From: Amoebophrya sp. A120
Taxonomy: Eukaryota; Protista; Dinoflagellata
Assembly (NCBI GenBank): GCA_905178155.1
Contig: CAJINV010000004.1
Location: 3,319,320-3,383,319, forward strand
Length of the DNA stretch: 64,000 nt
Reading direction: 5' to 3'
Positions 831 through 64,000 of the stretch are shown here, one piece after another (position 1 is the first letter of the stretch; each line of letters starts with the position of its first letter). A program made the position numbers and the translations under genes. The notes below the pieces were generated by a model that was not told the origin of the DNA, made no database searches, and saw nothing but the letters and a program-made list of their open reading frames with translations.

Positions 831-2334
831 TCACTTTCGGATTCGGTGTGCAGATGTTGTTTCAACTCCTCAGAGGTAATCGTCCCGTCGCTGACGTCGA
901 TTTTCAGATCCGCTGCCGCTTTCAGCAGAGCCTTGTCTTCGTCGAGGGTTTGCGCCGGTCCAAGGTGTAGTGCGTCTTTCTGCGCCCTGGTAAGACCATC
1001 GATGCCGATGTGCAACGCCTGGTTGGAGTCCAGGCCGTGCTGCTCCTCCTGCAAGGCGAGTAGTTCGTCCTGCACCTCCACCTCTATGGGAGTGTCAGGA
1101 TTGAAATCGACAAAGGCAATGCATAATATCGATACCAGTCAGAAGCCCAATTACAATTTTCAAGCGGTGCATGACAAATTTGGGCAGAGCCGAAATCCAG
1201 TCTGTCATGCTGTTTCGGCAAAGAAGACTGCTCCTGTCATGCTATTTTAGCACCTCAGTTGCTACCCCTCAACAGGCTTACAATGTGCCTCACTTGCCTA
1301 CTCTGCAAGACAGGCACTTTGTTTCTTTGTGGGCTGCATTATTTGCGTGACAAATCATTCCAACTTTGGCGATTTCAATCCTGACACATCCATACCATCG
1401 ATCTCATTGTCTTGGTTCTTATCAGCCATAAAGAAATCACCCGCCTTCCAGCTTCTGGGATGGGCCTTTCGCCATTCGTCTTCCTCGATGGGCAGTTTGC
1501 CGTCTCCGATGTGGGCATACCCATACTCCGCGCTCTTGTAGGTGTCCGAGGGGTAGGGCGGGCCTTTCGAACCGTCAAATGCGCCACTATCGCCCGTGTT
1601 CTCGGCCAGCCAATGCTCTTGGAATTTGTCCGCCAACTCGCGCGCTGCGTCCCTGTCGTTCTCAACATCGAGTGCCTTTTGCAGCTCCTCGCCGGTGATG
1701 CCATCGGCGAGTGTTTTTTCCAACTCCTTGGCGTCTTCAGGTCCATATGGAAGTGTCAGAATCGAAATTGACAAAATCGCAAAATTTGTAATGCACAAAA
1801 TCGATGTCAGTTGGAGCCTCAGTTTCCAAGTGGCGCATGACGAATTTCGGAAGCACCCAAATCCAGTCTGTCATGCTGTTTGGGCAAAGAAGACTCCCCC
1901 TGTCGTGCTACTCTGGCAGAACATTTTATACCCCTAAACAGGCTTGCAATCGGTCTCATTTGCCTGCTCCCCAATACAGGCCTTCAGTGACGTACATTTT
2001 ATGCATTTTTTCGACTTTGTCGATTTCGATCCTGACACATCCATAATCCATCCAAATTCAGTATCTCGGCCACCGCATCATGCAACGCCTCTGTCTCGTC
2101 CGCCGTTGGGGCCGCGTCTGCGCCTGCGGGTAACATGTTCAGCGCTGCATCATAGTACGCCAGGTTGTCTACATTTAGCAACCCGCCCAGGAGGTCGTCG
2201 ACACCACCGTCCTCTGCATGCAGAAGTGTAGTCTCCTTCTCGTTCTTTGTGACAACTTTTCGGGCAGTGGCGAAGCACGCGGCACCCGCGACACCGTGAA
2301 CCAGAATTCTACCTAGCACAGCGCCCATGATCAT
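791..2334 (-). CDS. EF-hand-like acidic protein, exons approx 2334-2046, 1745-1395, 1084-831; 3' end uncertain
   Basis: ORFs join in frame after introner removal (..NLDG|PEDAKE.., ..DKNQDNEID|(E)VEVQDELL..); EF-loop-like DKNQDNEIDEVE and DVSDGTITSEEL. Confidence 0.6.
1085..1394. mobile_element. Introner family A
   Basis: TIR tatgggagtgtcaggattgaaatcg / cgatttcaatcctgacacatccata; diverged TSD acctc/ccatc. Confidence 0.9.
1746..2045. mobile_element. Introner family A
   Basis: Family A TIRs; TSD gtcca/atcca. Confidence 0.9.
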
Positions 2335-2728
2335 TCGGTGGATAATTATTCGCTACACAATCATTAGGTACAGCCCGCCCTAAGTGGCGGTCGTCATTTT
2401 CTATCAACAGTAGAGACACTGTTTGATATGTTGCCGCCTATTTTGTTTTTTTGTTTTATCTCAGCATTTGTGACTGCACGATCCAGAAGCAAGTCGTACT
2501 TCAGGAGGATTTGGCTTGCAAGACGATTTCTCGCATTCTTCAACAAACCCCCACTTACAGTATCGCAACCCCTCGCCCTCCATAGCCCGTCCCATGCTAT
2601 CTAAACGTAAACCTCGGTGCACGACATGGAGGATTGCATCTCATATTACTCATCTTCGCTGTATAATTTCATGATCGAGAGAACTGCGAGCGAAGTCACG
2701 ACGAAAACAGTGTGTAGATCTAGATTTG

Positions 2729-3035
2729 TATGGGAGTGTCAGAATCGAAATCAACAAAATCGAAATAATTTGTGATGCATAAAATCGATACCACTTGGAG
2801 CCTCAGTTTCCAAGTGGCGCATGACAAATTTCGGGAGCACCAAAATCCAGTCTGTCATGCTGTTTGGGCAAAGAAGACTGCTCCTGGTGTGCTGCTCCGG
2901 CAGCACATCGCCTTCCCGTAATCAGGCTTGCAATCCGTCTCATTTGCCTACTCCCCAACACAGGCCTTACTTGCCCTACATTCTACGCATTACAAATTTT
3001 TCGACTTTGTCGATTTCGATCCTGACACATCCATA
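2729..3035. mobile_element. Family A element outside any evident CDS
   Basis: Family A TIRs; perfect TSD atttg. Confidence 0.9.
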
Positions 3036-3923
3036 ATTTGCATTTGCAGTGTACGAGTCCCACGACGTCGAGAAATAAACCGATTTTTTTACTAGTCTCC
3101 AGGATGTTGTCGAGTCTAGGTCTACCCATTTTTCGCACAAATCTCGCGCTCACGAACCCACACTGCGGAAGCGGGTACTACTACGTGGAACCTTGTATTC
3201 ATCAACTTTGATGCGCAAGATACGTTTTATATCGATTTTGTGAAACTGTAACTGAAACATATTACGATACTAGACGACAATACGATCTCGACTATCGATT
3301 CAAATTCGTTGGTATGGCGAGCTGGAAACAACGATCGGAGCGCGAAACCAAAGCGAAATTCAAATCTCGCCACAACGACATTGGACACTCAAGAATGAAT
3401 CCGCGAAAAAATAACTTCGCAGCTTCTGTCCGAACAAGCAAAATATACCCGTTACAAGTAAGTAAAGGCGGACGGGGAGAAACCAAGAGCTTAGTAAGTT
3501 CGTTGTATCCACTGCGCCCGCAGTGCTGGAATGGTTGCTTGTTTCAGAAGTACAAGTGGCGCCAATGCTGACAACTGTCTTCACTCATCATATATATCAT
3601 GCGGATTCTAGTAGTTGTAGCTGTTTTCAAGTATTGCATCCTGTGCCTGTCCTGCTCGCAGATGTTGCAGCATTACCATTTAACATTTGGCCAGATATCA
3701 AACCACTGCCTTCAATTGGTCGGACATTTTGGCAGCAAGTCGTAAGTACGTTTTCGTTTTTGACTTGTTTATACTTGAAACTGAAACTGAAACGAATTCG
3801 TCAGGACCTACTTGTTTTGAAAAGTAGAATAGCTTGTCTCTTTTGGCATTTTCCCAAGAATCATAAAACTAAATTTTCTCAGACATTTTCAATCTCGATT
3901 TTTCGGTTTTTCCGCGTTTTTCT

Positions 3924-4714
3924 TTATTTGGACATTTCCTCCAGCAAAGCCTCTTTTCGGTGCAGAACATGCTCGAACTTTTCGGCCATGCTCGCGGACC
4001 AAGCGTCCTCTGGTTCCACCTCCACCTCCTCATGTCGCCTAGCATTCTGACTGCTCTGACGTTGTACCAAATCAGAATTCGCCCCCGTCACCCCGTCTGG
4101 GCTGAAACTTTTTGCAGCTCGGTGGTACAACTCCAACACACGACTGCTCGACGTTGCGGGTGCAGCAGGAGCGCCACTTGTAGAAGAAGTTCTTCCTGCC
4201 GCTGTCTTGGAAGTCTTAAGTTTGTCCTTTCTGGTGTTACTTCTGCTTTTCGAAGAAGCCGAAGATGATGTTTTCGAAGCTGTTTTCTCTTCTTCATCTC
4301 CGCGGGAGTAGAGTTTTCTGCTCTGATGTTGTAGTGCGTTTGAGAACTCGTCGCGACTGGTCACATCCACTGCTTCGTCGTAGCCGGGTGGGATCGTGCT
4401 GGCGGAACCCGGTTTGTTGGTCGCACTGGTCGTTGGTGTCAGGCTATGCAAGAAAAAAACTGTGTAAGTGTAACTTTGTCTTGCAGATGTTGCAATACAG
4501 TTACACGCCTTGTCACGCCGCATATGCATCAGAGGCTATTTTAGTACGTGTTTTAGCGTACTAGCTACGCATGACAAGTTTTCTGTCATGCAAAACAAAT
4601 CTATGATGCTGCTCCTGCAAGAAAGTTACACTTACACAGTTTTTTTCTTCGATACAGTCGCTTTGGATGCTCGTACTTCCAGTCAGGAAGGGGCGCGGGC
4701 TGAACGAAAGACAT
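3924..4714 (-). CDS. Hypothetical Ser/Thr-rich protein, 2 exons
   Basis: MSFVQPAPLPDWKYEHPKRL joins TPTTSATNK.. in frame after removing 4445-4654 plus TSD. Confidence 0.6.
4445..4654. mobile_element. Introner family D
   Basis: TIR tatgcaagaaaaaaactgtgtaagtgtaacttt / aaagttacacttacacagttttttttcttcgata; TSD caggc/cagtc. Confidence 0.9.
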
Positions 4715-4892: not shown

Positions 4893-6416
4893 AAGTAGTA
4901 GGTACCTCTGTCGCCGACCCCAAAACCTCCGCCAAAGATGCGCTTGCACTGGAGCTGCTACCACTACTTGCAAGCGTCGCTCGCTCGAGGGGCCCCGACG
5001 ATCACAAAAAAATACGCGCACAAAATGCGGACCGGATTGGACAAGGTGTCGGAAAAGACATCCCAGGTCCCTCGGTCGGCGCGAAGCCCCTCTGGCCCGG
5101 AGCCCATGGAACTCACGATGCCAGATCCCAAGAAGCAAATACGCAAGCAAGATGATGCAGCGAAACAGAGCCCCGGCAATCATTTTGCTCCCTTTTGATA
5201 GATGCGAAACGACCAAAAGCCTCGACAATGGCGTACTTGTTTTACAAGAACGCATTGGGCCGGGCGGACCAGATTCAGAATAAAATTGGGCGGCGGAGGG
5301 GATTTCAGAATTTAATAGGCGGCCAAGATAGATTTCAGAATTTAATTGGCGGCCGATAGGGAATTCAGAATTTAATTGGCGCCCTCAATCAATTTCAGAA
5401 TTTAATTGGCGGCCCGGGACAATTTCAGAATTAAGTTGGAAACGAGTTTGGAAATAGTTGGAAAGCTTTCCCCCACTTGAAATCTCTGATCCAACTTTTT
5501 TCAACTCTTTTCCAACTTAATTTAGAAATTGGTGTCGGACCCTTCCGCAAGATGCTCGCTGGCCCGCCTTTTCTTCAATGACCTAGCTGGACGCCGGGCC
5601 GCTTCCCTCGAAAAAAACACAGGCCAGGGTGGTTCCTCGCTATGGCCTGCGGTCTTTCATGACCCGGGAATCAGGGCCCATTCGCCAGAGGCAAGTGCGC
5701 GGCTGGCGGCGTGCAAGGCCATGACGTTGGGGGCAGCAATGGCGTTGAATTGCTGCAGAATCTTGCCAGACCAAGAAAGTCCCTGTCTTTCGCGCATGAA
5801 GACGCTTATACAGTGGCGGCCCGAAGCAGGAAAGTCGAAGGGCCCCCACACGCCCTATTTCGTCTTGCAGAATAGTTGACGCATGAAAACCTCGCCACCA
5901 GCTGAGGGCTTGCTTTGTGTATATCTGTAGGAAGCCTCGGCGCGAATGGGTGCGCTACAAACCCAGGCGGCCTTCTGAAGCCGGCCCTGTGCTGCGATGC
6001 GCTGTATGAAGCCGCGGCGCGCTCGGCTACATTCTAGAGCAGTATCGTGGGCATGACGCATGTAGCAGGAAAAACGGCAGCAGCGGGGCTGTAACTGCCG
6101 CTGTGTCGTACGTGAGGCCGCCACCCTTGAGAAATCAAGCGCGTGACAGATCCCCAAATCGCTTTGAATAGCAACGACGAAGCCCGTTTTGTAGCCACCT
6201 AGGGGCACGTTGATGCTCCGTCGATCGATAACCAGGCGCGAGGACTCAGGCCCCTAAAACGTCGAGCCAAAGTGTAAAATTGCTGGAATTCTGAATTCAT
6301 TCTGAATTCGTTAAGAAATGATTACTTTCTAAGGCGGTTTTGAGTTAAGTAGTAGGTACCTGTGTCGCCAAAACCTCCGCCAAAGATGCGCTTGCACTGG
6401 AGCTGCTACCACTACT
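4893..6416. repeat. About 70-bp direct repeat (4893-4968 and 6347-6416) flanking a 1.38-kb unclassified segment
   Basis: aagtagtaggtacct..aaaacctccgccaaagatgcgcttgcactggagctgctaccactact present twice, differing by a 6-nt indel and a substitution. Confidence 0.85.
5272..5432. repeat. 30-bp period tandem array, about 5.5 units
   Basis: Core atttcagaatttaattggcggcc plus about 7 variable nt. Confidence 0.9.
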
Positions 6417-9400
6417 GCTTATGGGAGTGTCAGAATCGAAATCGTCAGAGTTGAAATAATTTGTGATGCATAAAACGGATACCAGTTGGAAGCCCAATTT
6501 CCAAGCGGCGCATGACAAATTTGAGTAGAACCGAAATCCAGTCTGTCATGCTGTTTGAGTAAGGAAGACGCCTTTTGTCATGCTACTTTAGCAGCTCTAT
6601 TTCTACTCCGCAACAGGCTTACAATCTGCCTCCCTTGCCTACTCTGCAAGACAGGCACTTTGTGGGTTGCATTTTATGCATCACAAACTATTTCAACTTT
6701 GACGATTTCAATCCTGACACTCCCATACTGCTCGTATCATGTTTGAAATTTGACGTCGTCGAGACACCCGGAGCTGCGGACCCCCTCGTCTTCGATCCCT
6801 CGCGACTTCTGTTCACCAGTTTCAGCTTCTTCTTCTGCATCGTCTTCCCGGTTGCAAAAGGCGCAGGAGCTTCTTCGTGATGTTCTACTTGTTTCCCAAA
6901 CGCGATTTGATGCTGGTGGTCAAACAGGGCCGCTGCGTTTTGGTCAAACTCAAAGGGCGATGTTCTACTTGATGCAGTTGATGGCTGCTGGGCGTTATTA
7001 TCTTCAACTCCTCGTTGTTGACCACTCCTGTTCAGAAGCTTGACAGAGGAGCTACTTGATGCAGCCGGGTAAAACACGAAGTTGTGCTGTTGTTCTTGTT
7101 CCTGGTATCCAGGAAAAAACACCCATCCCCATCAATTTTTTGCATGACAAATAGTGGACTTTATGCATGTTTTGCATGACAAATTGGATGGGGATGGGTG
7201 TTTTTTCCTGGATACCTGGTGCGCTCCCTCTACAAGCGGGACGGCGACGCTTTCGCTTGCCTCGTCTCCGGTCATCTGCGAAGCGGTCGCGTCTACGAGA
7301 CCGTGTACTACGTTGTCCTCCGTACTAGGTGCTTTTTGTGCTGCCGTAGTACCTCCCGCGAGGAGTTGTGCAGCGGGCTCCGAAGGAGCGGACGAGGCCA
7401 CGCCGCTATTGCTTTCTTGGGTCTCCACTAGTTGTACCTTGGTCACAGGGGTTTGCTGTTCGGCAGCAGCTGCAGAAGATCTTTCTTGTACCTGAAGTCC
7501 ACCGTCTCCTTCTACCAAAGCCGCAGGATCGACTGCCGCTGCGTCATCGACAGGCTTAGTTAATATTTTCGACGTCCTGCTTGCCGACGCTGAGTTGTTT
7601 ACAATTTCTCTACTGCTCTTTCGCCCCTCAGCAACAGGTGCCTCGCTTGTTCTAATTTCTTTCTGCGAGCCCGCCGAGGACCCCTGCCGCATCCCCTCTT
7701 TCAACATCTCGTCATCCCCGAGGACGTCGTTCGCAAGCGAAAAAGGGGCCACTTCCGAGGACGCCGGTGTGGCCTTGCTGCTCGACTCCTGCGGCTGTGA
7801 AAGAACAACATCATCGACGTTGTTTTTCAGCGTTGTTGCGCTACTTGTTCTAGCGGGCCCGGACTGACTTGTCTGCGTTTGCCGCCTGTCCATCATGATC
7901 CCCGCTAGTGTGGCCCGTGTCTGTGCAGCGGTTCTTGAAGCTGCTGCAGTTGATGTCCCTGCGACCACGTAATTGTTGTCCGGCGCGTTTTATCAAATGT
8001 AAAAATGTCTGGGTCTGCAAGGTTGGAACTTGTGACGCAGCTAACTTTGTACTCTAAAAACCTCTGTATTGCATGACCAGCAAGAGGAATCTAGTTTGTG
8101 CTACGCGGGGAGGGCATTTGTCATAAGGAGTAGGCATCAGGAAGCCCTCTAAAAATCTGTGATGCTAGGTCGTGCATCACAGACATCCTGGGTCGTGCAA
8201 AATATGCATGACAAACCCTGCAACATTCCAGACCCAGACACTTTTGCATTTGATACGTTTGAAGACAGTACATCACCGTCGACCGCACTGGAAGTCGGTG
8301 TGTGCTGCTCCTGCAGGCCTGTTTGGGGATCATGATTCTCCGCCACCTCTAGTAGAGCAGCTGCGTTGCTCACACTGGGTTCGAGACTTGGGGTGTTGGT
8401 ACCACCACCGTCGTTGGACGAGGAGAGCGCCACGACCCGCGGTTCGTGCAGCTCGCTATCCTCTGGCTCCTCCTGCACCGGCGTAACTTCCGCACTGGAG
8501 GAAAAGATCTGGTTATTTTCGGGCTGTTCTATTACTTCCGTTGGAATGATTTCAGGTTTATCTTTCACACGGCGACTCCGACTCCCCTCCTCCGTCTTTA
8601 TTTCCCTCTTCGGCGGGCCGAACCGGTAGACCTCGTCCATTACCTCGGGTTTCGTGATTGCCTCGATCTGCTCCTGCACCAGCTGTATGCATTGCAAGAG
8701 AAAGAGTATCGTACTAGTATATGTAAATTGCATTACAATTTGTAGTGCCGATTTGCCGAAGATGGGGAATTTGTCATGCGTGATTGCAATTACTACGAGT
8801 ACGATACTTTTGCACAGGATAAGCTGGTCAAAGGCGGCAAGCTGCTTGGCTCTGGTTTCCACCGAGTTAGTCCCCTCGGTCGACAAGACCCGCAGCGTCA
8901 GCCCCGCGGCGCCGGGGAGGACGCCGGGGATCTTCATTTTCATCGTCGGGTCGATGCTCTCGTCCTCGTCCACGCCAGCGTTTAGATTGATTGCCGCGTC
9001 ATACGCCCAGTGGTATTCTGCGTAAAAGAGAACCCGAAGTACTACTTACCCCATAGTCAAACTGATGATGCTCTTCACTCTGCTACACAAGTGCAGAAGG
9101 TTAGACAGAAACGCATGACAAACTTGGGTCCATGTTGTACTTGTAGTCGCCGTTGCATTCGCAGTGAAATATCCACATCAGAAATCGCCTGTCTTAGCTG
9201 ATCCTGATCCTGATGAGTACGGCATCAGCAAAAACATTCCAAAAGAGCCTGCTTGGAAGATGCTCCTCAACCTCATGGGGCTGCGCATGAGACACATTCC
9301 ATTGTAGAAAAGGAAAACTACATGCAAATCCGCATGACAACTCTGGGGTGAAAATTATGGGTACTAACTTCAACTTACGTTTTTCCACAGCATAACCGTT

Positions 9401-12400
9401 CCTGCTGCGCTTTCTCGAACACGGAATGCCGTTTGGACTATGAATTGCAAAAGTATCGTACTCGTATAAATGCATTACAAATTCCCTCAGCATGAGAAAT
9501 GAGATCATTTGTAAATGCGGACTTACCTTAAGAAAAGGATTTGCAATGCAAGACTTGCATTTATACGAGTGCGATACTTTTGCACAGGATATGGACACCA
9601 CGGCCTCCAGAATGTCCGCGGAGTCGGTGCGCCGCTGTATGGGAGCGTCAGGTTTGAAATCGTCAAAGTTGAAATAATTTGTAATGCATAAAATGCATGA
9701 CCCGAGGTACGTGTGTTGCAGAGCAGGCAAGTGAGGCCGATTGTAAAGCCTGTTTGGGGTTACAGCTCGAGCTGCTAAAGTAGGATGAGAAAATCACTCT
9801 TCGTTGCCTAAACAGCATGACAAACTGGATTTCGGGGCCACCGAAATTTGTCATGCGCCACTTGAAAACTGGGCTCCAACTGGCATCCATTTTATGCATT
9901 ACAAATTATTTCAACTTTGACGATTTCAAACCTGACGCTTCCATACGCTGGTGCCGTGTCGTAATCTTGAGCGCCGCTGCGCGCCGCTGCTCTTCGCTCT
10001 GTGTTCGCTGCTTGCTCTCCACAAAGCGACCCAGGGAGGCCTCCGGATCGTGGACAAACACCATGTTGTGGTGCTCCGGACCCGCCTCGTCGCGCAGGCT
10101 GCTCATCCACCCCATCAGGGTTTCTTGGTGGATTTTTCCTGCCGTCCCGTTTTACAGTGAAAAATGCCCCCACCCCCAAAGTTGCAATAATTTGTGATGC
10201 AAAGTTTCCAAGTGAAAACTTTTTGTCATGCATGAAAGGAGTGTGAATCTTTCTGATGCAGAGTCTGGGCGTATATCGCATCGCTTGCATGACAAGCGCC
10301 GCTTTTGCTAGGATCTTTTGCAATGCAAATTTTTGCTATTCACGATTGGAAATCTGTGATGCTGATAGATGCAAGAAGGCGAGTGTTTCCTTGTTTGGAA
10401 AGGTTTGCAATACAAATGCTCCCAAGTTCGGGGATCGTGGGGGCATTTTTCCTTGTAATATCCCGCCGATCTTCTTCCGGGCGCTGGTCCGCAGGGGGTT
10501 GTCGCCGAAGTACGTCTTCAACAACTGCTGCTGCTGGTTCTCCGTGATGCCCCGTTGCTTGCGCCGAAACATCTCGCGGACAAACGCCTGCCGTTGCGCC
10601 ACGGACATGTTGCGGTACTTTTGCACGGTGCTCCCGTACCCCCGCGACGGGTCGCCGTTCTCATCGCCCTTGTGGATTGCAAATATGTCTGGGTCCTCTG
10701 GAAGTCTGTGATGCTGAATTGAGCCTGATTGAAGCGCTTGCAATGGCAGCCAGGCATGACAAGCTTCAGAGACGCCTGCTGATGGTGCCTACCACGCATC
10801 ACAAATTGCGTTTTTGCATGCCCAAGCAAGCTCCTCTTTTGCTGCTCATGCAACACAGAATTTCCAGGAATGCAAGACACGCATCACAAGTTCCACTGTT
10901 CCAGACCCAGACACTTTTGCATTTGATAGCCGTCTTTCCCACGCAAGTGCTCCTCCAGCCGGTGGTTTTATCCTGTGCAAAAGTATCGCGCTCGCATTGC
11001 AATCATGCATTACAAATCTTTCTCTTGAGGTAAATCAGCATTACAAATTTGATTTCTCATGCCGAGGAAATTTGTAATGCATTTGTACGAGTACGATACT
11101 TTTGCAGTTCATAGGTTTTCCGCGTCCACAACCGGATCCGCGTGTCGCACCCGGTAGGGAGACTTGTCCTTTTCTCTACTCTTTGCACCACGACCGCCTT
11201 CTTGGGTATTACCCGCAAGAACCTTGTTCCGCTTCCTGGATCCGGGGCCGCCCGACCCGGCGCGGTACTGCATGGTTGGAAACGCACCGTACGCCGCGCC
11301 GCCGGGGCTGTTCCTGCTGGCGACCCCGACCGTCATGTCGTAGGCTGCCTCCGCGGGCACGCGGTAGGGCGACTGCCCGGCGGTGATATCAAATGCAAAT
11401 ATGTCTGGGTGTGGAAGAGTCATGCTGCTTTTGCATGACACAGAAGGTCTGGCATGGCAGCTCTAGCATCACAGGTTTCGAGAGGCTTTCGCTATTCCGA
11501 ATCCGCATCACAAATGCCCCATTTTGGTGACAGAAAGTGGGCAACTTTTGCTGCCTGTGCATGAGAGATTTTTCTGCGTTGTGGAATGCGCATCACAAGT
11601 TTGCACTCTTCCAGACCCAGACATATTTGCAATGGATAGGTGAATTCGTACCGCAAATCGCCCCACCCCGAGTGGTCGCCGCTGCGGGCCGTGGTTTATC
11701 CTGTGCAAAAGTATCGCACTCGTACTAATTGCAAATATGCATGACAAATATTCTTCCTAAGGTAAAACAGCATTACAAATCCCATTTCTCTTCGTGCCAA
11801 AAGCAAAATTTCTAATGCAATTTATACTAGTACGATACTTTTGCAATGCATATGGTTTTGCCGACGCCTACGTGCTTGCCGAGATTCTCCAGATCGTGAA
11901 AAAAGGGGCGGCTCCACGTGTGGCGCACCGGGTCCTGGGCGGTTTGCACGAAGGCACGGTGCCGGAAGAGCTTGTGGTCGTCGATCCACAAAAGCCGCGG
12001 GCCGCAGTACTGTGTTTATGTTGAACTTTAATTTTTTTATCCGCTTCACATTTTACGTACTATGAGGAAAACTTCAAAAAAATCGAAAAAGCTGCTATAT
12101 GTGAGTACAACTGCTGCAGCAAAGAAACAGATGAGCATGAGGCAATCACCTTCGTGTAAACTCTAAATACGTTTGCGATTTGGTTCCAGTAGTACGGCAG
12201 CGAGGTGATTTGCGGGTTGTTCTGGAGCAACAAGATCACCAAGTGGGTGTTATACGACAGCGGCCGCAATTGGCTGCAGCTCCTCAGCTTGTTGTTTCGC
12301 AAATCCAAGTACCGCAGCTCCACCAACGTCTCCAAATGCTCCACCTTTTCGATCTTGTTCGAATCCAGCCCCAGCTCCTCCAAGGCCTCACAGAGCAGCA

Positions 12401-46274: not shown

Positions 46275-46356
46275 GAAAGTGGACGTCGAGAGTGGAAAGT
46301 GGACGTCGAGACGTTTTATTCAAGTGGAAAGTGGACGTCGAGACGTTTATATTCAA
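46275..46356. repeat. Short tandem duplication, 3 copies
   Basis: gaaagtggacgtcgaga x3 in intergenic DNA. Confidence 0.8.
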
Positions 46357-46578
46357 AAAGCAATTGGAGGGGAAACAAGTGCAGGGAAAACTGGTGCTGA
46401 AGCTGATCTTGTGCTTCCTGTCTGTCGGAGTTTTGTTTTGCCAGTCCCAAAAAAGGAAAATTTGTAATTGTATCCATCCCTCCTTCCAATAATTTCTTGC
46501 AGATGAGCAGTTGTATGCTAATGTACTCTTAGCCTTACAAAAACGCAATCTGGAAACTACAGCAAGCCTTAGCTTTAA

Positions 46579-55610: not shown

Positions 55611-58600
55611 TCACTTCGCCCCGGTCTGAATGATTTGACACAGCTCGCCGATATTGTTTGCCTTGATCGCCTGGCGACAGGCCTGCACGTATCAAAATGA
55701 AAAATCCCCCTCCCCATATCAAAACGAAATTTCCGATGCTGGATTTGTGTACACGACAAATGCGTTTTGTATTGCAGGAAGGCATTGCGGCCAGATACTC
55801 AGCCTAGGTAGAGGCGTCTCGGTCTAGCTGTTCAGAATGGCAAACGGCAACGGCTCCCCTTTAGGCCCAACAGCATGACAAATCGCTTCCATCATGGGGC
55901 GGAAGCTTCTGCCCTTGTCATCTTGCAAAAAAAATGTGATTTCTGACCTCAAATCAGCAGCACAAACTTTCGGAAACATCCCTTTTCAATATGGGGAGGG
56001 GGAGATTTTCCTTTCCATAGCACGGTGCGGGACTTGGCGGAGCCGCACCGAAGCCGCCCGGCGTTCTGCAGTGCTTGATTCACCTTTTTCAAATGGGACA
56101 GAAGCTCTTGGTAGTTCCCCGCGCGCTTTGTGTGTTCCGCAATCATGTCCCCATTGGTGTTCTGCAGCACCTGGTACGCCCGTCGCAGGTTCTTCATGTC
56201 CGCCAGAATGCGGTAGTCCTCCGCCTTCACTACCAACGCCTTTACCAGGTTCTATGGAATGCAAATATCCCTGGATGTCTGGAAGGTTGCAACTTGTGAA
56301 GCTGTCCTTGGAAGCTAAAAAAATCTGTATTGCTTGACCAGCAAGAGGAGTTCAGTTTGTGCTAAGCGGAGTGGGCATTTCTCATGCGGAGTACGCATCA
56401 GAAGGCCCCTTAAAAATCTGTGATGCTAGGGCATGCATCACAGGCATCAGGAGTCATGCAAAATATGCACGACAAACCTGGCAATCCCAATCTTCCAGAC
56501 CCAGATATAGGTATTTGCAATCCATAGGTTCGAAGAGTCCGCAATTTCCGCCGTCAGTTTCAGCCGCGTGGCGTTGTATCAAGAGGAAGAATCCGCCCTC
56601 CCCATATTGAAACGGAAATTTCTGTTGCTGCATTTGTGTACACAAATCAGCTCTGTATTGCAGTGAGGCACTGCAGGCAAAGCCTAAGCCTGCTTAGAGG
56701 TGTTTTGGTGTAGGTGCTTAGCATTGCAGAGGCCTGCCATGTAGGCGCAGCAGCATTACAAATCGCCTGCATAGAAAGGCGGATTCTTTGGATTTGCCCC
56801 CCTGCAAGAGAGACAGGATTTGTGGTCTCAAATCAGCATCACAATTTTTTAGATAAAGCATACTCTTTCAGTATGGGGAGGAGGGATTTTTCCTCACAAT
56901 ACGTTGTGGCCCTCGACTTGCTTCAAAATCCTGGTGTATCCTGTGCAAAAGTATCGTACTCGTATTGCAATCATGCATTACAAATCCTTCTGTTTAGGTA
57001 AATCCGCATTACAAATTTTATTTCTCATGCTGAGGAAATTTGTAATGCATTTATACGAGTACGATACTTTTGCAGTTCATATGGTGAGCTCCTCCAGTTC
57101 CGAGGGAAAGTGCGCCGCAGCATCCAGCTCCTTCACCTGATTTAGTTTTAGATTTTCATTTTGAACATATTCATAATAATCTGCGACGCATAAAGTGCCA
57201 GGTGCAAAGTGCCTGTCTTCCTTGCAGAGCAGGTCAGTGAGGGCGATTATATATACGCCTGTTCGGGGTTAGAGATATTAGAGCTGCTACAGTAGCATGA
57301 CAAAAGATGTGCTCTTTGCAAAACAGCATGACATCAAACTGGATCGATGGAGGCGCCACTAAAATTCGTCATGCTCCAGTTAGGAATTGGCCTACCACCT
57401 GGATCTTGGCGTCGATTTTCTGCATCACAAATTATTTTAAGTATGTCGATTCTGACACTGACGCTTCCATATCATAACGATAGCCATAGCCTGTAGTACC
57501 TGTAAATGCTGCGTGAGGTCCTCTATAATCTCGGCCGCCAATATCCCACGAAAAAGTGTTACAGTTACACATGTGTTGTCAATTCAGCAACACAAATCTT
57601 CTCTGCATGAGAGGGAGAACTTGCAATGCACAGACCATAAGGCAAAACACAGATGAAATGAAGCTCGGATGCAGTTCTGGCATGCCAGAGGTTGTCTATC
57701 ATGCTGGGCTTGCAACGCAATGTGTAACTGTAACACTTTTTTCTCGTGATAGCCAACTCCAGGTCGTCGGTGCAGGCGACGAACTGGAGCTCGTGTCCTT
57801 AGTAAAAAAGTCCCCACCCCACAGTCAAGTTGCAAACTCTGCAACACAAATCCGGGAGTTTTGGCAGCCATGCATGACAAGTTCGTCTTTGTAGTGTAGT
57901 GCAGGTATTACGAATTCCAAAACAGGATTGGAAATCTTCAATGCTTCTCATGTAGATGCGCATTTAGAAATGTTCCTGTCATTGCAAATCTGCATGACAA
58001 CTCTGGTGTGGGGACGTTTTTGCTCAGGATAGCTCGTTGCGGTTGTTCGGGCTGTCGGAGGTTTCCAGCAAGAGCGCCGTTTGCTTCCGTAGGGAAACAA
58101 ACTGGCACTGCAGGTGCGCGTTGGAGTTGCTCGGGTTCGGGTTCTATCCTGTGCAGAAGTACTATCGTACTCGTAGTAATTGCAGTTATGCATTACAAAT
58201 CTTTTTCCTAAGGTCAATCAGCATTACCAATTCCATTTCTCATGCTGAGGAAATTTGTATTGCGATTTATACTAGTACGATACTTTTGCAGTTCATAGGT
58301 TCTTTGCGTTGATAAAATTCTTTGCGAGCCATTGCCAGATGCGGCTCGCGGTTATCCAGGAAAAAAACTGCGTGAGTGTAAGTTTCTTGGAGGAATAGCA
58401 TCACAAGCTTGCTCTGCATGACACAGAAAACCTGTCATGCGCAGCTAGAACGTGAAAACACGTACGAAAGTTGCTTCTGATGCATGTCCAGCATGACAGG
58501 TGTAACAGTTTTGCATTTTCTGCAACACAAAGTTACACTAACACAGTTTTTTTCTTGGATAGCAGTGACGGGAAGAACAATCTTCACGTTGCCGGCGGGC

Positions 58601-61600
58601 CGGCGTAGCTTCCCCTCGGTGACGAAGTGAAACATGGAGAACTATCCTGTGCAAAAACGAGTGGTCCTCACCAAACTGCTAATAGCTGTCATGCAAAATA
58701 ATTTTATCTGCATGCTTGAAATGTCTCTCTTCATGCGGAGCCCGATGTTGTTGACGCGCAATTTCTAGTGCTGTTTTGAAATTCGCGATGCTCGAATCTT
58801 CAGCATGAGAAGCTAGTAGATCTGTGACGCTGCTGCACTAGCTCAACGCGATTGAGTACAACATTCCGAACCCAAACTTGATGTCAGGCGCAAGAGCAGC
58901 CAAAGCTCCCTGTTGATTTGATTTGCAGATAATTTCCAACTTGACACCTATGGGGTGGGCAAGTAGTTTTTGCACAGGATAAGAACTTGGGCAGCATCAC
59001 CGTCTGCTCAAAGGTGTGGTACTGCTCTGACGTGGCGGACACGCCACAGTAGCAGTGGATCTTCATGTGGATTTCCGCGTTCTTGGTCGCACTGATGGAA
59101 ACGGAGTTTTCGTTTTTCGCGGGCGCGAAGTGCGTCAACTGCGCCTCCTGGTCCTCAAAGAGGTGTTCCGCGTAGATCACGCACCCGCGGATCACGCTGT
59201 AGTTGTTCGTGGCTAAGCGAAGCCGCATATCGTATGTAAAAACGTTCCCACCCCAGAGTCACGATGGTGATTTTATTGCTACACAAATCAACAAGTTTTG
59301 GCTGTTTCGCATGACAAGTTTAGACTCGTAGCGTAGTGCTGTTTGAGGTAGTGCAGCCGCATGACAAATGGACTACCTTATCCTGATTCCAGCATCACAA
59401 ACTTCCAGATTGATAGCATGAGAAAATGTCTCTCATGGGGCTGCGCATAAGAAAAATTTTAGTAGGTAAGTATGCCATTTTGCAATACAACTCTGGGGTG
59501 GGGACGTTTTTACACAGGATACCGCAGCCCGTCGGGGCTGGTTTCCAAACTGACCTGCAGCTTGGTGTCCGTGGGGATCAGACCCGCGCGCCCCCCGGAC
59601 TCCTTCATCTGACGGATCTGCTCCTGAGATATGCAATACAAATTTCCCGTACATGTACAAGATGCATCACACCACTTTGGGGTGTAAAACTTGTCATGCT
59701 AAACTAGGAAAGAAGACAAGTTCTGCCAAGCAGAGACCGCATTTGTACGTGAACGGGAAATTTACTGTGGATATGAGAATCGAGAATACAATTTGTAGAG
59801 TTAAAGCTTTTGGTATCACTAAGAATGATCTTGCAGGATCATAAGAAAAACAAATTCAGAATAGATTTTGCAGCGATGTAGACCACGAGAGTTGACGAGA
59901 GAAGCGAAATCAAAAACAAACCACAGAAGAGCAAAAAAGAAACAGATACGTCGAAGCTTTTCAGCTCGTTCTGCAGGTCTTGTCTTTCCGCGAGCATCGC
60001 ACGATACGCCTCGTTGTCCTCCTCGGTTTTCGTGTCTGCCGTCACGAGACCCATGTTTTTCTCCGCTTTTTTCTTTTTTTCCATCGATTTGGCCGCCGCG
60101 GACGAGGCACTGGCCCCGCTGGCCGCGGCCTGCTGCTGCTCCGCTAGAAACCCGTGCACCTCGCCGGTATTCGTGATCGCGATGATGTTTGGCATGCCGT
60201 CGTTTCGGTACCTGCCGATCACCAGTGAGGACATGTTGTTCGCCGCCAGCGTCTCCTTGAACAGGATTTCGCCCGTCATCTGGTTTCGGACCTCCACCTT
60301 CCCGGTCGACCACCCTATCACAACGTGCCGAATCCCGCCCGAGGCGCCCTCCAGCAGCTTCAGCCCCCGGACCTCGTTCTTCGCCGCCACCCGCCAGAGC
60401 CTCTGCGCCCAGTTCCCGCCCGCCTGAGACATGGCCAGACTGGAGCTGGAGGCCGAGGATCCGCCCTGGACCATTTTGTAGACGCCGACAGTGCCGTTTT
60501 TCAAGGCATAGGCGAACATGGTGGAGGAGATGCACTCGAGGTGGGTGACAATGTCCACCTCGGTTAGGGGGCTGCCCACGGAGGAGCAGGAACCTGGTTT
60601 AGAAGTTGATGTATCAATCTTGAAGGATCTTGTTTTACGCAGATTGAGAATCCTTTGCAAGTCTACACTAAACTCGGCAATCTATGATCGCTCATTTGTG
60701 AATCGAATCTCGTCCTCCGGGAGCTGTGCAGTGCTGAAGAAGCTAATGCTCATCTACATCAACATCTTGTAATCCGATGCATGACAACGATTTTCATGTA
60801 GTTCTCTGTACCTCCCCGTAGCGAAAACGCTGCGAGCTCGTTGTCCTCCGTGGCGACGAGCGTATGAGAAGGAACAACTCCGCCTGATACTCCCTAGAGG
60901 CATCTAGTTTCACAAGAAGCGAATCAAAGAAAAAAGCGCATACGCGTTCGCGTCGGGTCACTGCATAGCTCGACATCCGATCTACATAATTTGCACTTGC
61001 ACTTCCTTGTGCCATAATGAGAAACGCGAATGAGGATCAGTACATCTAGTTGTACAACTAGATCACACTCATAAAGAAAATCCGCGATGCAATCCGGTCC
61101 TTCTGCGAAGGCCACCGCCGACACCGTGTCGCCGACCACGGACCAGAACAGCTCTGACCCCTCCTGATCGAACCCCTGGACGCTGCAGTGCCCGCCGACG
61201 AGGCACACGGGGCCAAACGGCTCGCGCCGCCCGAACCGGAGACGGGTGCAACCATCGTATCCTGTGCAAAAGTATCGCACTCGTAGTAATCGCAATTACG
61301 CATGACAAATCGCCTTCCTAAGCTAAAACAGCATGACACATTCCGTTTGTCATGCTAAGGATCTTTGTAATGCAATTTCTACTAGTACGATACTTTTGCA
61401 TTTCATACGTCGGTAACTTCCTTCATGAACAGCTCAGAATTGTCCTCGATGTCGTACCTGGTGTTGAAAAGCGAGCGAGAGAATGTTTGTCATGCAAAAA
61501 TGAAATGGCACGCCCAAGCTCTCATGCATGACAACCAACATCAAATCGTTTTGGGCTAGAAACAATAAAACAAGCCTTAGTAAACTAGTATACGCCATGA

Positions 61601-62263
61601 CATTCGCGGGGGTCCCGACGAGGATGACATCTCGGTCCGGATTTTTCTCCGCCAAAGGCCCAACCGCGATGTCCGTATATGCAGTGCAAAAGTATCGTAT
61701 TCGTAATCGTATAAATGCATTACAGATTTCCTCAGCATGAGAAATAAAATTTGTAATGCTGATTTACCTTCAGAAAAAGATTTGTAATGCATGGCTGCAA
61801 TACGAGGACGATGCTTTCGCACAGCATACCGTAATCTTCTTGTTGATGTTCAGGTACTGCTGGTTGGCTGGGCTATCAAGTGCAAAGATGTCTGAATCTG
61901 GAAGAGTGCATGTTTGTGATGCTTGTCTGGCATGACTCTTAAATCTGTCATGCACATTACCCAAGAGCTCCATTTTTCTGCCATGCAGAAACGTACTTTG
62001 TCAACATGCAGAATAGGCAACACCTAGAAGCGCAGAAACATGTCATGCTGAGCCACCACTTGTGGCCTCATCATGATACACCGCCCACCATCACAAGTTT
62101 CCAGACCCAGACATCTTTGCAACGCATATGGGCTGTGGATCAGCACTTTCCCGGCCGAGGTCGCGGCGGCCAGGTAGGTAGTGTCGCTGTTGGACTTCCC
62201 GAGGACGCAGAGCCCATCGAACACCTGGTTCTTCAGCGAGAACTGAAAGGTGGAAGTTAACAT
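55611..62263 (-). CDS. BBS2: Bardet-Biedl syndrome 2 protein (BBSome subunit), 13 introners plus several GT-AG introns
   Basis: [127 protein letters not shown]. Confidence 0.95.
55690..56019. mobile_element. Introner family F
   Basis: Family F TIRs; TSD gcacg. Confidence 0.92.
56253..56526. mobile_element. Introner family C
   Basis: Family C-like TIRs; TSD ggttc. Confidence 0.9.
56577..56901. mobile_element. Introner family F
   Basis: Family F TIRs; TSD cgttg. Confidence 0.92.
56937..57081. mobile_element. Introner family B
   Basis: Family B TIRs; TSD tggtg. Confidence 0.92.
57176..57471. mobile_element. Decayed family A element lacking its left TIR, inside GT-AG intron 57137-57499
   Basis: Body resembles 9638-9945; right end ctgacgcttccata; tcata at 57171-57175 and 57472-57476. 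Confidence 0.75.
57542..57751. mobile_element. Introner family D
   Basis: Family D TIRs; TSD gccaa. Confidence 0.92.
57794..58031. mobile_element. Introner family E
   Basis: Starts TGT; family E TIRs; TSD gctcg. Confidence 0.9.
58145..58297. mobile_element. Introner family B
   Basis: Family B TIRs; TSD ggttc. Confidence 0.92.
58353..58561. mobile_element. Introner family D
   Basis: Family D TIRs; TSD gcggt/gcagt. Confidence 0.9.
58643..58981. mobile_element. Introner family G
   Basis: Perfect 16-bp TIR tatcctgtgcaaaaac; distinct body; TSD agaac. Confidence 0.9.
59228..59521. mobile_element. Introner family E
   Basis: Family E TIRs; TSD ccgca. Confidence 0.92.
61258..61407. mobile_element. 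Introner family B
   Basis: Family B TIRs; TSD catcg/cgtcg. Confidence 0.92.
61678..61828. mobile_element. Introner family B
   Basis: Family B TIRs; TSD ccgta. Confidence 0.92.
61874..62128. mobile_element. Introner family C
   Basis: Family C TIRs; TSD tgggc. Confidence 0.92.
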
Positions 62264-63835
62264 CCTGTTCGTCGCAAGGCGGGGTCGGTGTAAGTCTAAG
62301 AAGTACTTGTTCTTCTACCTAGAAGGCTTCAGGCTCCTCGTGTAGGTACTTAGTTCTCCTCGGACCACTGGTATGGTAGCTTTTGTGTGCTCCTGCTTGA
62401 GCACAGGAGACCACACGCTCCAGTTTTTCTCCACTCGTCGTTCTGTGCGGTAAAAGGAGCTGTCTGTGGTACGTCTAAGTAGTTCTTGAAAAGCTATTGA
62501 AAACTGCGAAGCCGGAACGCCAACGCGCGATTCGGTCTTATTTCCCACAGAATCGCCACGGAGCAACACGTTGTCAACCGGGTACGTGTAAAATACGTTG
62601 TGGTTGTCGTGGCCGACTTACTTACTACATCACGTTCGAAATACTTCAACTTCTTCACGACGGCATGAAGGTGCTGTTTGCTGCGGTCTCTCTCGGTCCT
62701 TTCATCCGACAGGCTTGTTCCGTGGTATCTTCAACTCCCGCCCTTTTTCGCGATAATTGTACGCCAGCTGGTGAGTCCGTGCCATTGGCGCGTGTTTCAG
62801 TTTGGTGTTTGATAAGTGCTCCATCTCAAAACGAAAACACCGAAGATAAAGATTCATGTATTTTCCGCGCATACAATAGTTCTCAGAAACTCCTCCTTTT
62901 ATCTCCCGCTCCGTACACCCTTGCCGCAGGTCCAGATGCACTCTGGTGTTGTAAAAACCAGTTCACTAGTAGTAACTCGCGTTGTGGCTTGCTGAGCCAG
63001 CGGCCGAAGTGATTCTTGGCTTTCCTAAGCTCATTCTATCTTCCTTGGTTGCTGCTCCGAAAAGTCAAAAAAGCACCGAAGTCATTTGCGGCAAGGAAGA
63101 GCAACCTTCCTGCCCGTCTTCACTTATACGAATGCAGTAAAAACACCATTCATAGAAGAACAGGTGCTACCAGCTTTGTTCGTTCATCTCCCGAAGCTTT
63201 GATACGGATTGGAGCGATTCTGCACCTCCTGGATAGGAGAAGCGGAAGCAGAAGCCCACCAGTCGTGTCCGCAAGTGTGAACTTTGAATTTTTTGCTTTA
63301 TTGTTCCATAGTAGATACATTGCATTTTTTTTCCAAAAGCACCTTATCCACAACAATTTTTCATCGCACCGCCGCGGAGAAAATGGATATAATTCGATTA
63401 CGTCGGACAGTCATCTTCATGATTGTGATTCACCATCGCAGTGACCACAGTCAGAGCACCCTCCAAACGCTCCACTAACATGGCTCTAGTAGTAATTTGT
63501 GTGGCATCTGTGCTCCTGTCTCCCCGCAAACTTGTTCCCCCTCGAATTTTTCCATCCCCCCAACGGCGCGGATGTGTCAAATTATGTCAACAACGATTTC
63601 AAACTAAGAATCTTCACGGAAGATAATCTACTCTTCCCAGTTCTGTTGAATGTAATAAGCAATAAACTTCAGTTTTTTTCGGTCTATCCACTTTGCTAGG
63701 TTAGTTGAATGTAATAAGCAATAAAGTAGTGTTTTTTCGAGGAATCGAGCATCCTGTAATAGGGTAAGTACAACCAGGCCTATTGCAGCAGGAATCATCA
63801 AGCATGGAATCTAGTGATATAATAGCTGCTATCGC

Positions 63836-63908
63836 CTAGTCATCCTCCTCCTCTTCCGCACCGTCCCCGATGCTGAGGAAGAAGTTCAGCTCCACGTTTT
63901 GGGCCTCA
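63836..63908 (-). CDS. Last exon of a gene continuing beyond the right edge
   Basis: ..EAQNVELNFFLSIGDGAEEEEDD* directly adjacent to an introner. Confidence 0.55.
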
Positions 63909-64000
63909 TATGCATTGCAAATATGTCTGGGTCTGGAAGCGTTGGAACTTGTGATGCAAACTCTGGAACACAAAAAAATTTGTGTTGCATGAGCGGCAAA
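63909..64000. mobile_element. Introner family C, truncated by the window edge
   Basis: tatgcattgcaaatatgtctgggtctggaag. Confidence 0.85.

What the first reader, a model, noticed from the sequence alone, without database searches (positions are those of the whole stretch)
1085..64000. Transposon-like TIR elements acting as precisely removable non-GT-AG introns
Seen: about 55 elements in about 8 families share one grammar, a 5-bp direct repeat + TAT...inverted repeat...ATA + the same 5 bp (perfect in roughly three quarters). Removing element plus one repeat restores conserved frames in BBS2, MORN, RING-H2 and WD40 genes. The base next to TAT can be A, C, G or T, so most copies have no GT-AG ends. 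Established: non-canonical introner elements with inverted and direct repeats were described in Amoebophrya, so the class is not new. Inference: removal depends on end pairing and the duplicated target, implying a divergent spliceosomal mode or a separate RNA (or DNA) excision machinery.
Basis: partly seen in the sequence, partly recalled or inferred. Interest (0 to 1): 0.9.

Follow-up and report, generated by a model that had tools for sequence, protein, structure and literature searches.

The report
Transposon introns spliced in either orientation
In a parasite of marine algae (Amoebophrya), 57 small hairpin-ended, transposon-like inserts fill a fifth of this DNA, only one has normal splice signals, and those checked are cleanly missing from likely-RNA contigs and annotated proteins; the class is already published, but these copies show removal in either orientation and without a perfect flanking repeat, likely by machinery that reads the two symmetric ends.

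Summary
In detail: 57 TAT...ATA inverted-repeat elements (109-381 bp, 20.7% of the window), 43 with a perfect 5-bp direct repeat (DR), none in shuffles. Only 1 of 57 can be read GT..AG. Host proteins match Amoebophrya sp. A120 (99-100%), so these are the introner elements of Farhat et al. 2021: already known. Removal at RNA level is supported: two likely-RNA contigs are accounted for to the base by removing 7 elements plus 5 nt each together with GT-AG introns, while DNA-like contigs keep the elements. Best mechanism: end-defined splicing with a 5-nt ruler, by a relaxed spliceosome (about 0.5) or a separate nuclease/ligase (about 0.35). The chemistry is untested.

The parts
1085..1394 (.). element, family A (~305 bp), DR 3/5, in gene 794-2352
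   Evidence: frame only
1746..2045 (.). element, family A, DR 4/5
   Evidence: frame only
2729..3035 (.). element, family A, DR 5/5, probably outside coding sequence
4445..4654 (.). element, family D (~210 bp), DR 4/5
6348..12015 (-). host gene of unknown function: 942-codon frame after removing 12 elements, 298 without removal
6420..6727 (.). element, family A, DR 5/5
7106..7214 (.). element, single, DR 5/5; the only one readable as GT..AG (cut after DR base 4)
7991..8255 (.). element, family B (~260 bp), DR 5/5
8686..8821 (.). element, family C (~150 bp), orientation +, DR 5/5
9014..9394 (.). element, single, DR 2/5
9439..9591 (.). element, family C, orientation +, DR 5/5
9638..9945 (.). element, family A, opposite orientation, DR 5/5
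10150..10460 (.). element, single, DR 5/5; 3' end on the transcript AAA instead of ATA
10671..10928 (.). element, family B, opposite orientation, DR 4/5; 3' end ACA
10969..11113 (.). element, family C, orientation -, DR 5/5
11387..11638 (.). element, family B, opposite orientation, DR 5/5
11697..11852 (.). element, family C, orientation -, DR 5/5
15049..15197 (.). element, family C, orientation +, DR 5/5
15262..15520 (.). element, family B, DR 5/5
17209..17353 (.). element, family C, orientation -, DR 5/5
18196..18410 (.). element, single, DR 5/5
22882..23143 (.). element, family B, DR 5/5
23261..23520 (.). element, family B, DR 5/5
26656..26970 (.). element, single, DR 3/5
32367..32618 (.). 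element, single, DR 3/5
32972..33233 (.). element, family B, DR 5/5
37730..41955 (-). host gene, WD40 protein related to ARPC1: 909-codon frame after removing 6 elements; last 890 residues identical to P0003
39927..40083 (.). element, family C, orientation +, DR 5/5; X3 contig piece stops at its edge
40380..40653 (.). element, single, DR 4/5; DR base 2 comes from the 5' copy (contig piece end and P0003 residue E)
40704..41002 (.). element, single, DR 3/5; P0003 residue F puts DR base 5 in the 3' copy
41147..41478 (.). element, family E (~330 bp), DR 4/5; 6 bp from the next element, leaving a predicted 1-nt exon
41485..41629 (.). element, family C, orientation +, DR 5/5
41669..41930 (.). element, family B, DR 5/5
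42397..45504 (-). host transcript (metallophosphoesterase domain); X3 contig of 2616 nt equals the model length
43039..43210 (.). element, family C, orientation +, DR 3/5, 5' end TAG; absent from the X3 contig; DR bases 2-3 from the 5' copy
43745..43905 (.). element, family C, orientation -, DR 5/5; absent from the same contig
45927..49449 (-). host transcript (MORN repeats); X3 contig span of 1810 nt equals the model with 5 elements and 3 GT-AG introns removed
46984..47192 (.). element, family D, DR 5/5
47237..47388 (.). element, family C, orientation +, DR 5/5
47490..47736 (.). element, single, DR 5/5; tandem with the next, one shared DR between them (no net exon)
47742..47949 (.). element, family D, DR 5/5
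47994..48303 (.). element, family A, opposite orientation, DR 5/5
50484..50636 (.). element, family C, orientation -, DR 5/5; splits a RING-H2 pattern
50691..50942 (.). element, family B, DR 5/5
51047..51325 (.). element, family F, DR 5/5; X3 contig piece stops at its edge
51789..51999 (.). element, family D, DR 5/5; X3 contig piece stops at its DR
55614..62263 (-). host gene BBS2 (P0001, 751 aa): 14 exonic elements and 4 GT-AG introns
55690..56019 (.). element, family E, DR 5/5
56253..56526 (.). element, family B, DR 5/5
56577..56901 (.). element, family E, DR 5/5
56937..57081 (.). element, family C, orientation -, DR 5/5
57175..57471 (.). decayed family-A copy inside a GT-AG intron; its 3' inverted repeat is lost (not counted among the 57)
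57542..57751 (.). element, family D, DR 5/5
57794..58031 (.). element, family F, DR 5/5; 3' end ACA
58145..58297 (.). element, family C, orientation -, DR 5/5
58353..58561 (.). element, family D, DR 4/5
58643..58981 (.). element, single, DR 5/5
59228..59521 (.). element, family F, DR 5/5
59630..59773 (.). element, single, DR 5/5, intact, inside a 326-nt GT-AG intron, 6 nt before its acceptor
60863..61073 (.). element, single, DR 2/5 and weak stem; missed by the repeat scans, found because P0001 lacks it plus 5 nt
61258..61407 (.). element, family C, orientation -, DR 4/5
61678..61828 (.). element, family C, orientation +, DR 5/5
61874..62128 (.). element, family B, DR 5/5
63909..64000 (.). family-B copy cut by the window end (not counted among the 57)

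Best explanation
These are short inverted-repeat inserts with TAT...ATA ends, likely non-autonomous DNA transposons that duplicated 5 bp on insertion, which are absent together with 5 flanking bases from the likely-RNA contigs and annotated proteins checked, and which are likely spliced out of pre-mRNA by a relaxed U2-type spliceosome guided by the two symmetric ends rather than by GT-AG. Shown: the grammar, the removal of element + 5 nt, both orientations, tolerance of DR mismatches. Inferred: the long terminal stem brings the ends together in either orientation; the machinery measures from TAT and ATA (a ruler: 1-2 nt before TAT, 3-4 nt after ATA, 5 in all), so the frame is kept whatever the DR sequence, and a perfect DR only restores the original bases. 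With the cut after DR base 4 the intron begins N-U-A-U, sharing +2 U and +3 A with the GT-AG introns of this window, which would let the spliceosome use it as a donor with a free first base and a free acceptor. Spread by an integrase-like transposase encoded elsewhere is inferred from the 5-bp repeat, the shared ends and a published annotation.
For: Contig X3 record 11 (span 1810 nt): after 5 elements (+5 each) and two GT-AG introns whose outer ends are fixed by piece ends, the remaining intron had to be 215 nt; it lands on CAG and gives a 319-codon frame. Record 10 (2616 nt) fits with 2 elements and a fitted 149-nt GT-AG intron. The same contigs skip GT-AG introns, so they are spliced RNA (inference). 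X1 contigs run unbroken through 40380, 40704, 43039 and 58643 (table 8). A25 BBS2 (P0002) aligns across the junctions. Retention would shift the frame or bring a stop in all three frames for 51 of 56. Orientation to the transcript: families 8:8, 9:2, 4:2, 1:5, 3:0, 1:2; record 10 lacks a family-C copy of each orientation. Predicted end pairing above 0.5 in 54 of 56 on the transcribed strand and 52 of 56 on the other. 5' TA is 56 of 56 and the last A 56 of 56. All 8 GT-AG donors resolved here begin GTA. U2, U4, U5 and U6 are reported in A120 and U1 was not found (PMC7789003 section 10); a spliceosome handles genomes with 95% non-GT/AG introns in Fritillaria (PMC13326754 abstract). A120 family 38 is listed with 5-bp TSD and TA/TA termini (PMC12130899 supplement file 8).
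Against: No call tests the chemistry. First and last intron bases are free and do not co-vary (p 0.26 and 0.62); no directional branch or acceptor signal was seen; a 1-nt and a 0-nt exon must be handled. No G-U excess on the transcribed strand (21:20), and TIR positions 4-7 are no more alike within an element than between family mates, so RNA pairing as the selected feature is not shown. The upper bound of the cut (before DR base 5) rests on one annotated residue, F in P0003, whose N-terminus is mis-annotated; human ARPC1B has V there, the residue a cut after base 5 would give. If the cut is after base 5 or base 3, the N-U-A likeness to donors is lost. The conserved TAT may be a transposase requirement only. 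18 of 56 elements have a frame-keeping GT..AG pair within 12 nt of both ends; only those covered by contigs or proteins are shown not to use it. X3 is RNA only by the tool's guess plus my inference; RNA evidence covers 11 elements in 39800-59790 and none in the rest of the window.
Confidence: 0.5

Rival explanations
1. Same elements and same ruler, but a separate protein endonuclease plus RNA ligase, not the spliceosome, recognises the terminal stem (TAT/ATA, 4x4 loop, 7-bp stem) and releases a circle or linear RNA, as proposed for euglenid nonconventional introns.
For: Full two-fold symmetry; free first and last bases; 0- and 1-nt exons; euglenid TIR introns are released as full-length circles without lariats (review PMC11282704, passage); U1 not detected in Amoebophrya.
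Against: No candidate enzyme in the window; no G-U signal of RNA pairing; 60863 is removed with only a 6-bp terminal stem; the 4 end variants spare the 5' TA, and 3 of the 4 fall on the 3' end, a weak hint of direction.
Confidence: 0.35
2. The elements are excised from DNA (ciliate-IES-like or transposase-driven) in a somatic or stage-specific copy of the genome, and the contigs that lack them come from that copy or its transcripts.
For: TIR + 5-bp repeat is a DNA-transposon form; orientation symmetry, no G-U bias, and an internal motif on both strands fit a double-stranded substrate.
Against: X1 contigs keep the elements at the depth of unique sequence (41-47), and none of the 15 joints shown of 1,422 is a precise element skip (contigs drop rare variants, so this is not proof of absence). 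Contigs that lack elements also lack GT-AG introns. No second nucleus is known in Amoebophrya (recalled, no call).
Confidence: 0.06
3. The elements self-splice or are co-folded ribozyme-like RNAs.
For: Strong predicted folds; a 9-mer shared by 52 of 56 elements.
Against: Lengths of 109-381 nt, unrelated interiors, no Rfam match; a ribozyme would not work equally as its reverse complement.
Confidence: 0.03
4. The junctions are reverse-transcriptase template switches across hairpins flanked by direct repeats (false introns); mRNAs retain the elements.
For: Hairpin plus direct repeat is the known signature of such artefacts (recalled, no call); all RNA evidence here is cDNA-derived.
Against: BBS2 stays conserved with A25 across 14 exonic elements; retention is disruptive for 51 of 56; elements with 2-3 of 5 DR matches lose exactly 5 extra bases.
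Confidence: 0.03

Closest known systems
Amoebophrya sp. A120 introner elements (Farhat et al. 2021, PMC7789003; read: abstract, sections 10, 11, 12, 16, 25, search passages, supplement legends; figures not seen)
   Same: Host proteins 99-100% identical to A120 records; IR begins TAT, then seven less conserved bases, then three or more A; 5-bp DR in the legend of Fig. S19; non-canonical ends; RNA-supported removal; hairpin model.
   Different: Nothing that separates them: these are those elements. Not stated in the text searched: both orientations, DR not required, a bracket for the cut, unpaired TIR positions 4-7, a shared internal 9-mer, 0- and 1-nt exons. The paper calls the border position unknown and DRs 3-5 nt and variable; here the repeat is 5.
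A120 TIR-DNA introner families in Gozashti et al. 2025 (PMC12130899; read: search passages, supplement file 1 legends, 22 of the 58 A120 rows of file 8)
   Same: TIR DNA families of about 150, 210, 260, 305 and 320 bp with mostly non-canonical ends; family 38 listed with 5-bp TSD and TA/TA termini and integrase-like homology.
   Different: Splicing mechanism not addressed in the passages seen; I could not match window families to their family numbers by sequence.
Euglenid nonconventional introns (review PMC11282704, passages) and diplonemid noncanonical introns (PMC12621601, abstract)
   Same: Non-GT-AG ends, TIR pairing that joins the ends, TSD-like repeats, probable MITE origin, unknown machinery.
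   Different: Euglenid stems use CAG/CTG at +4..6 and -8..-6, with pyrimidine|purine junctions and circular products; here TAT/ATA ends, no junction base preference, products untested; unrelated lineage.
Aureococcus and Polarella introners (bioRxiv 10.1101/2020.10.14.339549, passages)
   Same: TIR/TSD transposons that create introns, several classes in either orientation.
   Different: They need GT/GC/GA and AG from the element or the TSD, so target sites are constrained; here 56 of 57 have none and the target sequence is free.
Fritillaria borealis non-canonical introns (PMC13326754, abstract)
   Same: MITE-derived introns escaping GT/AG in a genome that keeps a spliceosome.
   Different: They keep preferred end motifs and U1, and use duplicated U2AF; here there is no end dinucleotide at all and U1 was not detected.

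Membership tests
Amoebophrya A120 introner elements (Farhat 2021) | Host is A120 or a near-identical strain | tested here: met
   P0001 99% and P0003 100% identical, both named A120; A25 orthologue 58%
Amoebophrya A120 introner elements (Farhat 2021) | IR starts TAT + 7 less conserved bases + three or more A | tested here: met
   TAT 55 of 56 at the 5' end; A at positions 11, 12, 13 in 48, 48, 55 of 56; family A has TCAG there instead
Amoebophrya A120 introner elements (Farhat 2021) | 3-5-nt DR at the borders | tested here: met
   5-bp DR perfect in 43 of 57
Amoebophrya A120 introner elements (Farhat 2021) | Repeated families, removed from transcripts with non-canonical ends | tested here: met
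Non-autonomous TIR DNA transposon (MITE) | TIR, fixed-length TSD, no coding capacity, dispersed copies in both orientations | tested here: met
Non-autonomous TIR DNA transposon (MITE) | Cognate autonomous element or empty-site allele | not testable with these tools
   No whole genome held; no transposase hit in the window; the A25 protein shows only that the coding sequence is continuous
Ginger transposons | TGT..ACA termini (recalled) and integrase-like transposase | tested here: not met
   Termini are TAT..ATA; TGT at one end in 2 of 57. PMC12130899 also says family 38 lacks Ginger termini
U2-type spliceosomal intron | GT/GC..AG ends | tested here: not met
   1 of 57 in any register
U2-type spliceosomal intron | Lariat with 2'-5' branch, dependence on U2/U6 | not testable with these tools
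   no raw reads of this strain laid on exons
Euglenid-type nonconventional intron | End-joining stem in the RNA | tested here: inconclusive
   predicted in 54 of 56, equally on the other strand; no G-U bias
Euglenid-type nonconventional intron | CAG/CTG stem and pyrimidine|purine junctions | tested here: not met
   TAT/ATA ends, no junction base preference
Euglenid-type nonconventional intron | Full-length circular product | not testable with these tools
   needs RNase R or end-mapping data
Programmed DNA elimination (IES-like) | Element-free junctions in genomic DNA | tested here: inconclusive
   X1 contigs keep the elements; 15 of 1,422 joints shown, none a precise skip

The most novel reading that the evidence does not exclude
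Amoebophrya A120 has a second, non-spliceosomal mRNA splicing system: an orientation-blind nuclease/ligase that recognises the transposon's own symmetric ends (TAT, 4x4 loop, 7-bp stem), counts 5 flanking bases regardless of sequence, and so makes any insertion of this transposon family harmless at any site, down to exons of 1 and 0 nt; it may be derived from the transposon's own machinery.
Probability: 0.3. Interest if true: 0.9.

Novelty: already known. Interest (0 to 1): 0.5.

Why it matters
How tens of thousands of Amoebophrya introns without GT-AG are removed is an open question in the papers read. The window turns it into testable rules: symmetric ends, a 5-nt ruler, no need for a perfect repeat, a cut bracketed inside the repeat. 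Mismatched repeats are natural markers that fix the true splice position genome-wide from existing RNA-seq, which the original paper left unknown. The register decides between a relaxed spliceosome (intron starts N-U-A) and a new enzyme system. A sequence-independent, scar-free splice module would also explain why a transposon can fill a fifth of gene-dense DNA, and the rules would correct gene models (one published N-terminus here is read from inside an element).

Tried and rejected
No RNA holder is listed as such for the stretch searched. Raw RNA runs X9 and X10 laid 40 and 5 reads, on element ends only and none on exons: uninformative. The joint table was swamped by repeats from X1, so junctions were read from contig piece ends and lengths. 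A homologue search with the exon between 1085 and 1746 found nothing, and the representative search with 8152-9045 gave 4 low-complexity hits, so those DR mismatches could not be read. DR base 4 mismatches (9014, 32367, 61258) are silent in protein: a cut after base 3 and after base 4 cannot be told apart. Frame continuity alone fixes the extra bases only modulo 3 (2, 5 and 8 all give long frames). G-U against A-C test and first/last base covariation: no signal. The 572-codon frame at 34231-35946, beside a larger inverted repeat, has no Pfam hit and no usable Atlas hit; not a transposase on this evidence. Candidates at 20571 and 36383 were dropped as different repeats. Rfam: 0 matches. Earlier scan findings: none. 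Published genome-wide end dinucleotides were not used for the register, because aligner sliding inside perfect repeats can create them (recalled behaviour of BLAT). Huff et al. 2016 was not available under the id I tried and is known here only through. Searches behind 'not found in print': (PMC open subset and bioRxiv only) and text searches; figures, including Figs. 3, S19-S25 of Farhat 2021, were not visible and may show some of these points.

Full report
Observation. A scan for TAT...ATA pairs with complementary ends, blind to direct repeats (DR), gave 49 candidates, 38 with a perfect 5-bp DR; three block shuffles gave none. After dropping 3 candidates and adding 11 found by blastn, a relaxed scan and one protein comparison, the catalogue has 57 elements of 109-381 bp covering 20.7% of the window; the DR is 5/5 in 43, 4/5 in 7, 3/5 in 5 and 2/5 in 2. 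Most statistics below were run on the first 56. The catalogue can miss diverged copies: 60863-61073 escaped all repeat scans. Forty-five elements fall into six families with median within-family identity of 65-79% in the four largest. All host frames are on the minus strand.

Organism. Two window exons found proteins named Amoebophrya sp. A120 at 99% and 100% identity, and the A25 BBS2 orthologue at 58%. Farhat et al. 2021 describe A120 introner elements whose inverted repeat starts with TAT, then seven less conserved bases and three or more A, with 3-5-nt DRs, and call the border position unknown (PMC7789003, sections 10-12 and 16). Gozashti et al. 2025 list an A120 family with 5-bp TSD and TA/TA termini. 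The elements here are those elements.

They must be removed. Removing 12 elements plus 5 nt each opens a 942-codon frame at 6348-12015 against 298 unspliced; plus 3, 4, 6 or 7 nt does not, plus 2 or 8 does. BBS2 carries 14 exonic elements; the annotated A120 protein is recovered exactly and the A25 protein aligns across the junctions. A RING-H2 pattern appears only after removal. Retention would shift the frame or put stops in all frames for 51 of 56.

They are removed from RNA, not visibly from DNA. In the one read lay (39800-59790), contigs of run X1 pass unbroken through four elements at unique-sequence depth, and none of the 15 joints shown of 1,422 is a precise skip. Contigs of run X3 match exons with no differences and stop at element edges. 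For record 11, five elements (+5) and two GT-AG introns leave 215 nt to be explained; from the donor I had picked, that length lands on CAG and gives a 319-codon MORN frame, total 1810 of 1810. Record 10 fits at 2616 of 2616 with two elements and a 149-nt GT-AG intron, which was fitted (3 candidates, 2 keep the frame) and is weaker. Since the same contigs lack GT-AG introns I take X3 as spliced RNA; the tool only guesses this. Seven elements are thus supported by length and four more by piece ends; the rest of the window has no read evidence.

No canonical ends. One of 57 (7106) can be read GT..AG in any register within the DR. Eighteen of 56 have a frame-keeping GT..AG pair within 12 nt of both ends; contig lengths and proteins exclude such use only where they reach.

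Either orientation. Relative to the transcript the six families split 8:8, 9:2, 4:2, 1:5, 3:0 and 1:2, with all within-family comparisons consistent. Record 10 lacks one family-C copy of each orientation, and BBS2 and the 942-codon gene hold both. Either-orientation intron creation is known in Aureococcus and Polarella, but there with canonical sites. A text search of Farhat 2021 for orientation found only gene orientation.

The duplicated target is not needed, and it marks the cut. 43039 (3/5) is missing from record 10; 40704 (3/5) and 60863 (2/5) are missing from annotated proteins with exactly 5 extra bases; 9014 (2/5) sits in the 942-codon frame. The lay tool places joints leftmost in all unambiguous cases, so piece ends at 43033 and 40373 mean that DR bases 2-3 (43039) and base 2 (40380) come from the upstream copy; P0003 (E) and P0001 (F) agree. 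P0003 has F at 40704, which takes base 5 from the downstream copy. So the cut lies after base 3 and probably before base 5. The upper bound is one residue in a model built from transcript alignments whose N-terminus is read from inside element 41147, and human ARPC1B has V at that place, as a cut after base 5 would give (ARPC1A has A). Base-4 mismatches are silent in protein.

Anatomy of the ends. Complementarity by position is 56, 53, 55 of 56 at 1-3, then 27, 32, 36, 19 at 4-7, then 48-54 at 8-14. Positions 8-14 are more alike within an element than between family mates (31 up, 5 down, p 1.5e-4); positions 4-7 are not. This fits any TIR transposon and does not prove RNA pairing: isolated mismatches are 21 G-U against 20 A-C, and predicted end pairing is equal on both strands. 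The four end variants are TAG once at the 5' end and ACA, ACA, AAA at the 3' end; 5' TA and the last A never vary, though the scans favoured intact ends. A 9-mer, GCAT[GCT]A[CG]AA, occurs 129 times in 52 of 56 elements, on both strands and mirrored about 40 nt from each end in some families, against 14 times in the other 51 kb and 0.66 in shuffles; the outside copies appear to lie in introns, 3' flanks and the two partial elements (by eye). A copy inside a GT-AG intron has lost its 3' repeat (57175), another in such an intron is intact (59630). Two elements 6 bp apart leave a predicted 1-nt exon, and two share one DR with no net exon.

Mechanism. Origin (inferred, about 0.9): non-autonomous TIR transposons spread by one kind of transposase with a 5-bp staggered cut; the shared ends and internal motif argue for a common mobiliser, and an integrase-like A120 family with the same TSD and termini is the published candidate. 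No transposase was found in the window. Removal from RNA (about 0.9): shown for the elements covered. Rule (inferred): a ruler from the symmetric ends that takes 5 flanking bases in all. Machinery (untested): with a cut after base 4 the intron starts N-U-A-U, and all 8 GT-AG donors resolved here start GTA; A120 keeps U2, U4, U5 and U6, and a spliceosome copes with non-GT/AG introns in Fritillaria. I put a relaxed spliceosome at 0.5. Free first and last bases without covariation, full symmetry, tiny exons and the circular products of euglenid TIR introns keep a separate nuclease/ligase at 0.35. DNA excision, self-splicing and template-switch artefact share about 0.12.

Verdict. Real and striking, but a published feature of this organism. 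The added value is a set of rules and natural markers that make the open mechanism testable with existing data. Novelty: already known. Interest 0.5; 0.9 if a non-spliceosomal, orientation-blind system is confirmed (probability 0.3).

Noticed in passing
window 35969-37243: A 1275-bp intergenic element with about 70 bp of perfect terminal inverted repeat and further paired arms, ends unlike TAT..ATA and no 5-bp DR seen; it encloses a 560-bp foldback at 36373-36932.
   Followed up: partly
window 34231-35946 (-): Intronless 572-codon frame beside that repeat; no Pfam or usable Atlas hit.
   Followed up: partly
window 41147-41478: The annotated protein P0003 begins with residues translated from inside this element; the model with a 1-nt exon gives another N-terminus, and the length of X3 record 9 puts its 5' end near 42007, which fits that model.
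   Followed up: partly
window 734, 780, 18758, 28065, 28099, 32801, 53697, 55483, 60779, 61487, 61526: Copies of the elements' internal 9-mer outside elements, apparently in GT-AG introns and just after stop codons; remnants of elements or a general non-coding signal.
   Followed up: partly
window 5270-5430: Short tandem array of about 30-bp units containing CAGAATTTAATTGGCGGCC in an intergenic stretch.
   Followed up: no
whole window: All long frames found lie on the minus strand, as in the co-oriented gene blocks reported for Amoebophrya.
   Followed up: partly
window 41669-41717 (run X9): RNA reads from a run with the same species label match only an element end at 90-99% and then diverge, while no exon is covered: a related strain appears to carry similar ends.
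   Followed up: no
PMC7789003 section 11: A25 inverted repeats are said to start TTA plus two purines, which would also read as a donor-like N-T-A if the intron began at the first T; a lead only, no A25 DNA was examined.
   Followed up: no
window 12063-12779, 43904-45493, 53780-54595 (-): Other host genes by Pfam: leucine-rich repeats, metallophosphoesterase, PUB domain.
   Followed up: no
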